Source: the human T2T-CHM13v2.0 reference genome, Homo sapiens. Taken from it: a stretch of 64,000 nucleotides of DNA. The notes beneath the pieces are model-generated. The model was not told the origin of the DNA. It made no database searches and saw only the letters and a program-made list of their open reading frames with translations. This document shows positions 9,004 through 9,054 of this stretch, piece after piece (within the stretch, counting starts at the first letter, position 1; every line of letters starts with the position of its first letter). The position numbers and the translations under genes are program-made. The stretch lies in assembly GCF_009914755.1 (NCBI RefSeq), contig NC_060931.1; one strand, given 5' to 3'.

Positions 9004-9054
9004 TACACCCCCTGCGATATTGGGAGTAATATCATCCTCTCCCCCCTGGATATT
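9004..9054 (-). repeat. Solitary SATR half-monomer, inverted relative to the 1-3090 array
   Basis: Reverse complement is AATATCCAGGGGGGAGAGGATGATATTACTCCCAATATCGCAGGGGGTGTA, i.e. the array unit up to the centre of its palindrome. Confidence 0.9.

What the first reader, a model, noticed from the sequence alone, without database searches (positions are those of the whole stretch)
9004..9054. Lone inverted SATR half-unit is near-pristine and ends at the dyad axis
Seen: the 51-bp piece keeps the CpG-containing arm (CCCCCTGCGATATT), the full G run and GAGGATGATATTACTCCC, so it looks closer to an idealised unit than the array's right-edge units. Homology ends within about a base of the TGT|ACA centre, on the side facing the ZNF655 block. 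Inference: a half-site left by cleavage or strand exchange at the palindrome centre, possibly from a different sub-domain or array than the adjacent edge.
Basis: partly seen in the sequence, partly recalled or inferred. Interest (0 to 1): 0.7.

Follow-up and report, generated by a model that had tools for sequence, protein, structure and literature searches.

The report
Satellite patch at a duplication junction
A 51-base piece of satellite repeat sits exactly where a duplicated stretch of the ZNF655 gene ends and is likely a DNA-repair patch laid down when that stretch was copied here; this is an ordinary kind of event, except that the piece matches the satellite's consensus perfectly, which none of the array units we examined does.

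Summary
The piece (9004-9054) is real, solitary and inverted relative to the array at 1-3088. It matches the array consensus at 51 of 51 bases; none of 856 array units does, nor any other place in the genome. It sits exactly at the distal breakpoint of a 5.7-kb, intron-containing copy of ZNF655 (window 3089-9006; parent chr7:100,809,723-100,815,457; 6.9% diverged). Both ends carry 3-bp microhomology: TAC with the parent, overlapping the dyad, and ATT with a truncated MIR-like flank. Parent end and flank also share ATTTA, so TATTTA brackets the insert. Best reading (0.6): a templated filler made by microhomology-primed template switching in the repair event that made the duplication. The dyad ending does not show cleavage. 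TAC occurs only there in the unit, and register breaks (7 of 62 ends) and array termini (2 of 13) are not enriched at the dyad. Orientation switches are weakly enriched (6 of 9). No other solitary half-site was found (low power). The perfect consensus match is unexplained; faster array mutation was tested and not seen. Arrays are star-like around one monomer, so a lost master template is possible (0.2). New member of a known kind; interest 0.3.

The parts
9004..9054 (+). SATR-type satellite piece, consensus positions 1-51 of the 75-bp unit, inverted relative to the array at 1-3088; 45 bases (9006-9050) lie between the two TATTTA copies
9004..9006 (+). 3-bp microhomology TAC shared by the ZNF655 parent and the satellite; spans the dyad centre (9004|9005)
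9052..9054 (+). 3-bp microhomology ATT shared by the satellite and the dispersed repeat of the right flank
9000..9005 (+). TATTTA, left copy; parent-derived
9051..9056 (+). TATTTA, right copy; satellite end plus flank start
3089..9006 (-). Duplicated ZNF655 block (about 1.85 kb of likely intron, the zinc-finger exon and part of the 3' region), parent chr7:100,809,723-100,815,457; 6.9% substitutions; no poly(A); only these two copies found
8433..8719 (-). Alu present only in the window copy, inserted after the duplication
1..3088 (+). Right end of a roughly 20-kb satellite array (from about -17,014; inverted domain -14,428 to -11,774); joins the block at unit position about 50-52
9052..9560 (+). 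MIR-like dispersed repeat (name recalled), missing its first 100 or so profile positions and starting at the junction; split by an Alu at about 9096-9411

Best explanation
The 51-base satellite piece joins the end of a duplicated ZNF655 block to unrelated flanking DNA and is likely a templated repair patch, copied from a satellite unit during the same microhomology-guided repair event that made the duplication. Shown: the position at the breakpoint, both 3-bp microhomologies, the TATTTA repeat, an intron-containing copy with no poly(A). Inferred: a break near the right end of the 7p22 array was repaired by copying 5.7 kb from the ZNF655 locus, which has its own array 5.9 kb away. The nascent end (…TATTTAC) and the flank end were matched on ATTTA. 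The end first primed on a satellite strand at TAC, the tip of the unit's hairpin and the only TAC in the unit. It copied 45 bases and then annealed to the flank through ATT, which leaves TATTTA on both sides. The dyad would be a priming or strand-switch site, not necessarily a cut site. The age, roughly 30 million years, rests on recalled substitution rates.
For: Parent homology stops at 9006 and satellite homology starts at 9004. The right flank is unique at 9400-10300 and matches a repeat profile built from 22 copies from position 102 on, starting at 9052 (9 other genomic copies of that start, 0 in the reversed control). The shared ATTTA is unlikely by chance: 12 of 304 TAC sites times 79 of 864 ATT sites, about 0.4%, post hoc. 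The block includes about 1.85 kb upstream of a likely splice acceptor, ends about 300 bp before an AATAAA and has no A tail. Published repair-mediated duplications show 2-9-nt microhomology, 1-68-nt filler and short duplications (PMC2671141, passages). Templated insertions use priming and resolving microhomologies of 2-3 bp (PMC11541566, passages). The piece does not resemble the adjacent edge.
Against: It does not explain the perfect consensus match: a random array unit would match at about 1.4e-4, 0 of 856 units do, and satellite DNA does not diverge faster than flanks in 5 paralog pairs. Two other coincidences are left over: the array-side junction lies at the same unit position (about 51) as the far end of the piece, and 9055-9061 is an inverted 7-bp match to 3092-3098 (chance about 0.6%). 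Polymerase-theta insertions in PMC11541566 are mostly under 10 bp and copied from within about 20 bp of the break, unlike this one. No orthologous empty site could be examined.
Confidence: 0.6

Rival explanations
1. One reading: the piece is the stub of an older inverted domain at the array's right end. The array broke at or beside a dyad (hairpin or cruciform cutting, or fold-back), and the ZNF655 block replaced the DNA in between.
For: Satellite lies on both sides of the block. Inverted domains are common in these arrays. 6 of 9 orientation switches have one side within 6.5 bases of the dyad. Array DNA folds into hairpins (z -3.5 and -4.8), and the piece runs from the dyad to the loop of the second hairpin. 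Palindrome-centre breakage is established for PATRRs (PMC4940405, passages).
Against: An array-age stub should have decayed: arrays average 6.8-10.7 differences. ATTTA shared by block end and flank would be chance (about 0.4%). The dyad arms are only about 17 bp, against several hundred for PATRRs. Register breaks and termini are not enriched at the dyad. No second solitary half-site was found.
Confidence: 0.15
2. Separate later insertion: the block was first joined to the flank through ATTTA, and a 45-51-base satellite fragment (small circle, or tailless L1-primed RNA ending at the hairpin tip) was inserted later with a 5-6-bp duplication.
For: TATTTA direct repeat at 51-bp spacing. Dispersed alpha-satellite pieces carry 2-10-bp duplications (PMC7719264, passages). 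A young insertion would have had little time to mutate. The site resembles an L1 nick site (recalled motif).
Against: It must land on the 6 bases of an earlier junction by chance. No exact donor exists today, even for the inner 45 bases (14 matches within 2 mismatches, only the piece exact). There is no A tail.
Confidence: 0.1
3. Two steps with an inversion: the block first joined the array at a dyad and the flank at its other end, and block plus the last 51 array bases were later inverted through AAT/ATT.
For: Flipping the segment restores the array register at 3087-3088 to within one base (sequence). It would account for the matching unit position at both ends.
Against: The piece would be the next unit of a degenerate edge (mean 13.5, minimum 11 differences in the last 14 units), but it is pure consensus. 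It needs two events, and ATTTA becomes chance.
Confidence: 0.08

Closest known systems
Repair-mediated duplication with filler DNA (Pace et al. 2009, PMC2671141; passages seen)
   Same: DNA-level copy at a presumed break; 2-9-nt microhomology; filler of 1-68 nt; sometimes a short target duplication
   Different: Those are mostly up to 619 bp with donors within 5 kb; here 5.7 kb from 93 Mb away on the present chromosome, and the filler is a consensus satellite piece
Templated junction insertions of TMEJ / MMBIR-FoSTeS (PMC11541566; passages seen)
   Same: Priming and resolving microhomologies of 2-3 bp around inserted bases at a non-recurrent junction
   Different: Insert is 45-51 nt and its template is at least kilobases away, outside the typical polymerase-theta range in that paper; a template-switch (MMBIR-like) route fits the length better
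SATR1/SATR2 at segmental-duplication integration points (Xiao/DA duplicons; PMC5088589, PMC2700803; passages seen)
   Same: Satellite of this family at a duplication breakpoint
   Different: There a whole SATR-HERVE-SATR terminus marks the site; here a lone 51-mer does, and the block has no other copies
Dispersed single alpha-satellite repeats (PMC7719264; passages seen)
   Same: Short solitary satellite piece bracketed by a short duplication
   Different: Here the left copy of the repeat belongs to the duplicated block, so it is not a simple target-site duplication in pre-existing DNA
PATRR palindrome-mediated translocations (PMC4940405; passages seen)
   Same: Breakpoint at a palindrome centre
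   Different: PATRRs are several hundred bp, over 90% AT, near-perfect and recurrent; this dyad has about 17-bp arms and one instance

Membership tests
Templated filler at a duplication junction | Insert lies exactly between two unrelated joined sequences | tested here: met
   parent ends 9006, flank repeat starts 9052
Templated filler at a duplication junction | Short microhomology at both ends of the insert | tested here: met
   TAC and ATT; ATT rests on the repeat profile, not on an empty site
Templated filler at a duplication junction | Identifiable template near a breakpoint | tested here: inconclusive
   units within 2 mismatches exist in the local array (-16,488), the parent array and on three other arrays; none exact
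Templated filler at a duplication junction | Insert and duplication arise together (absent together in outgroups) | not testable with these tools
   no other primate genome is held
L1-mediated retrocopy (class 1 TSIP / processed pseudogene) for the block | Poly(A) tail behind a polyadenylation signal, introns removed, flanking target-site duplication | tested here: not met
   no tail at 3088, AATAAA about 300 bp beyond the end, about 1.85 kb of likely intron kept
Palindrome-centre cleavage (PATRR-like) | Long near-perfect palindrome | tested here: not met
   arms about 17 bp in the consensus
Palindrome-centre cleavage (PATRR-like) | Recurrent breakpoints at the centre | tested here: inconclusive
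   breaks 7 of 62, termini 2 of 13 (no excess); orientation switches 6 of 9 (weak excess)
SATR1 versus SATR2 | Match to the Dfam/Repbase model of the subfamily | not testable with these tools

The most novel reading that the evidence does not exclude
Dispersed SATR arrays were each written from one 75-bp double-hairpin master monomer (circle or RNA) that no longer exists in the human genome; the 51-mer is a late, faithful copy of that master, primed at its hairpin tip and captured as a repair patch, and so dates the master's activity to the ZNF655 duplication.
Probability: 0.2. Interest if true: 0.62.

Novelty: new member of a known kind. Interest (0 to 1): 0.3.

Why it matters
It fixes the true extent and origin of the so-called ZNF655 pseudogene: only 5.9 of the annotated 21 kb come from ZNF655, by DNA-level copying between two satellite-bearing sites. 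It adds a base-resolved case of SATR at a duplication junction, an association noted for Xiao/DA duplicons but without mechanism in the passages read. If the master-template reading holds, it would give a dated, testable handle on how dispersed SATR arrays were made.

Tried and rejected
TATTTA as a plain target-site duplication in old DNA: rejected, the left copy is parent-derived. Whole 26-kb complex as one insertion into the MIR-like repeat, with CTGGATATT at both ends as a duplication: the left flank does not match the profile, and the join scores like 200 random joins (99 of 200 as high). The first two attempts at that profile failed (one seed only; drift into Alu and empty test output). 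Retroposition of the block: rejected. Simple co-duplication of the parent array with the block: not supported; in the part of the output seen, array-to-array alignments reached about 73% against 89-92% for the block, and local units are no closer to parent units than to other arrays. Array hypermutability as the reason the piece looks pristine: not seen in 5 paralog pairs (non-CpG satellite vs flank 5.2/5.5, 5.1/4.7, 3.9/4.4, 8.0/7.6, 0.40/0.27%); four of these pairs hold partly degenerate arrays and the fifth has little power. A younger, consensus-like array at chr7:6.96 Mb as donor: no, mean 10.6 differences. Strand-coordinated deamination of units: not seen. A genome search with the flank alone found only itself. 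A genome-wide census of solitary fragments could not be made, so that test has low power. Earlier scan notes were not consulted.

Full report
Observation. The piece is at 9004-9054 as described and is the reverse complement of the unit of the array at 1-3088. I rebuilt the unit consensus by aligning about 53 kb of satellite from eight sources to a cyclic profile seeded from a parent-array unit, with the piece excluded. The 75-bp consensus equals the piece at all 51 positions. Of 544 units covering those positions none is exact (mean 9.4 differences, minimum 1). Of 312 more, 62 of them a near-identical duplicate set, none is closer than 3. Several of these arrays were chosen for resembling the piece, which works against this contrast. 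Genome-wide, 6 places match within 2 mismatches and only the piece is exact; for the inner 45 bases, 14 places and again only the piece. Units at the adjacent array edge average 12.7-13.5 differences (33 units).

Context. Window 3089-9006 is a copy of chr7:100,815,457 to 100,809,723, with 6.9% substitutions over 5,535 aligned bases and one Alu gained in the window copy. The parent region holds a 462-codon open frame behind a likely splice acceptor near 100,811,578. The copy therefore includes about 1.85 kb of likely intron, stops about 300 bp short of an AATAAA and has no A tail: a DNA-level duplication. Beyond 9006 nothing but Alu matches the parent region, and 9400-10300 is unique. The parent has its own array at 100,821,388-100,832,530, 5.9 kb past the block end and in the same relative orientation as the window array, but the two arrays are not specially related.

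Junctions. The parent reads …GGTATTTAC then TGTG; the window reads …GGTATTTAC then ACCCCC. TAC (9004-9006) is shared, covers the dyad centre, and is the only TAC in the unit on that strand. On the right, the flank matches a dispersed-repeat profile built from 22 copies (MIR by recall) from position 102 on, beginning at 9052, so ATT is shared and the repeat's front part is missing. Parent end and flank start also share ATTTA, which gives the TATTTA repeat at 9000-9005 and 9051-9056; the post hoc chance is about 0.4%. This is the anatomy of a templated insertion with priming and resolving microhomologies (PMC11541566, passages) or of filler in a repair-mediated duplication (PMC2671141, passages).

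Is the dyad special? Array DNA folds into two competing hairpins per unit (z -3.5 and -4.8 for one 150-base stretch), while the piece alone does not fold (z about 0). Register breaks inside arrays (31 breaks with shift of 8 or more between segments of 40 bases or more; degenerate domains left out) put 7 of 62 ends within 3.5 bases of the dyad, 6.6 expected. Outer ends, hand-picked with three ends made by later transposon insertions dropped, give 2 of 13 within 6.5 bases, 2.4 expected. Orientation switches give 6 of 9 within 6.5 bases (p=0.046) and 3 of 9 within 3.5 (p=0.27). Two switches found through a dyad-based pattern, and switches involving very short or degenerate segments, were left out. 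The symmetry itself favours switches there. Two genome-wide patterns for abrupt ends at the dyad gave 12 places besides the piece, all inside arrays; these patterns would catch only about 1% of true ends (my estimate). A microhomology window of four breakpoints covers the centre about 5% of the time by chance. The dyad may thus be a favoured priming or switching site; cutting is neither shown nor needed.

Why pristine? Given a consensus template, survival unchanged since the duplication has probability about 0.2. A random array unit is far less likely to match (1.4e-4 as a product of column frequencies). Faster mutation inside arrays is not seen in five paralog pairs. The arrays are star-like: of 10 array groups, 9 have the global consensus over positions 1-51, and shared derived variants are 1.03 for adjacent units, 0.88 within arrays and 0.82 between arrays (382 units). 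Their A/T-site divergence (5.6-8.6% in 9 of 10 groups) is near or above that of the main Alu cluster (5.2%, 32 of 46 copies), but their non-CpG C/G divergence (17-27%) is well above it (8.3%). This points to a master monomer active not long before the duplication. The alternative is luck plus selection: about one exact copy is expected among some ten thousand units (unit number is my estimate), and that it is a solitary one may be a few-percent event. I cannot separate these.

Mechanism. Most likely (0.6) one repair event copied the ZNF655 block into the array's right edge, and the nascent end made a short excursion onto a satellite template before joining the flank. Rivals: an older array stub cut at the dyad (0.15), a later insertion (0.1), a later inversion (0.08). 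Left unexplained by the best model: the same unit position (about 51) at the array-side junction and at the far end of the piece, and an inverted 7-bp match between 9055-9061 and 3092-3098 (about 0.6%).

Known work. SATR1/2 mark duplication integration points in Xiao/DA duplicons (PMC5088589, PMC2700803; passages). Macaque has larger SATR arrays with inverted parts (bioRxiv 2025.08.04.668424; passages and section 7 part 1). 7p22.1 and 7q22.1 are both evolutionary inversion bands (PMC1794428; passages); whether the two sites were once close was not tested. Also read as passages: PMC7719264, PMC5110952, PMC4940405, bioRxiv 2023.02.27.530095, 2025.11.03.686349 and 2021.07.12.451456. Searches for SATR1/SATR2, for LOC100131257/ZNF655 pseudogene/MIR3683, for SATR with rolling circle, and for ZNF655 with duplication and 7p22 listed nothing that, from title and abstract start, describes this junction or the star-like pattern. 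Most listed papers were not opened, and no supplements were read; those of the macaque preprint and of PMC5088589 may bear on both points.

Verdict. Observation confirmed; interpretation partly supported; a new member of a known kind with one real anomaly. Interest 0.3.

Noticed in passing
window 2989-23988: Only 3089-9006 of the 21-kb RefSeq 'ZNF655 pseudogene' derives from ZNF655; the rest has no match in the 50-kb parent region except Alus.
   Followed up: yes
local, parent, chr7:101.2 Mb, L003-L008 arrays: 75-bp arrays on five chromosomes share one consensus with near-independent mutations (star-like), and carry an excess of non-CpG C/G changes over Alus of similar A/T divergence.
   Followed up: partly
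G000 C2:159349614, C3:8676299, C3:128426795, C7:6960248, C9:102918972, C11:71543826, C14:45960824, C21:41342799: Eight loci share one identical 45-base variant unit; the two compared are 89%-identical paralogs, likely Xiao/DA-type duplicons.
   Followed up: partly
window 1641-1660 and 1425-1445; similar 12-14-base breaks upstream and in L003, L020: A recurrent short hairpin variant replaces one arm at the dyad, like a fold-back insertion; may be one old event amplified.
   Followed up: no
window about -17,015 (L017) and 9046-9054: CTGGATATT starts the array's left end and ends the piece; tested as a target duplication and not supported.
   Followed up: yes
L033 104,656,029 and 104,661,792; L022 64,019,178-64,019,251: Orientation switches inside chr6 arrays fall at or beside the dyad; one joins the dyad to unit position 53, the same two points that bound the piece.
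   Followed up: partly
window -2416 to -1765 (L016): A roughly 650-base non-satellite insert, LTR-like by recall, interrupts the array.
   Followed up: no
window 5361 and 6132: The window copy has lost 120 and 21 bases in the zinc-finger region relative to the parent.
   Followed up: no
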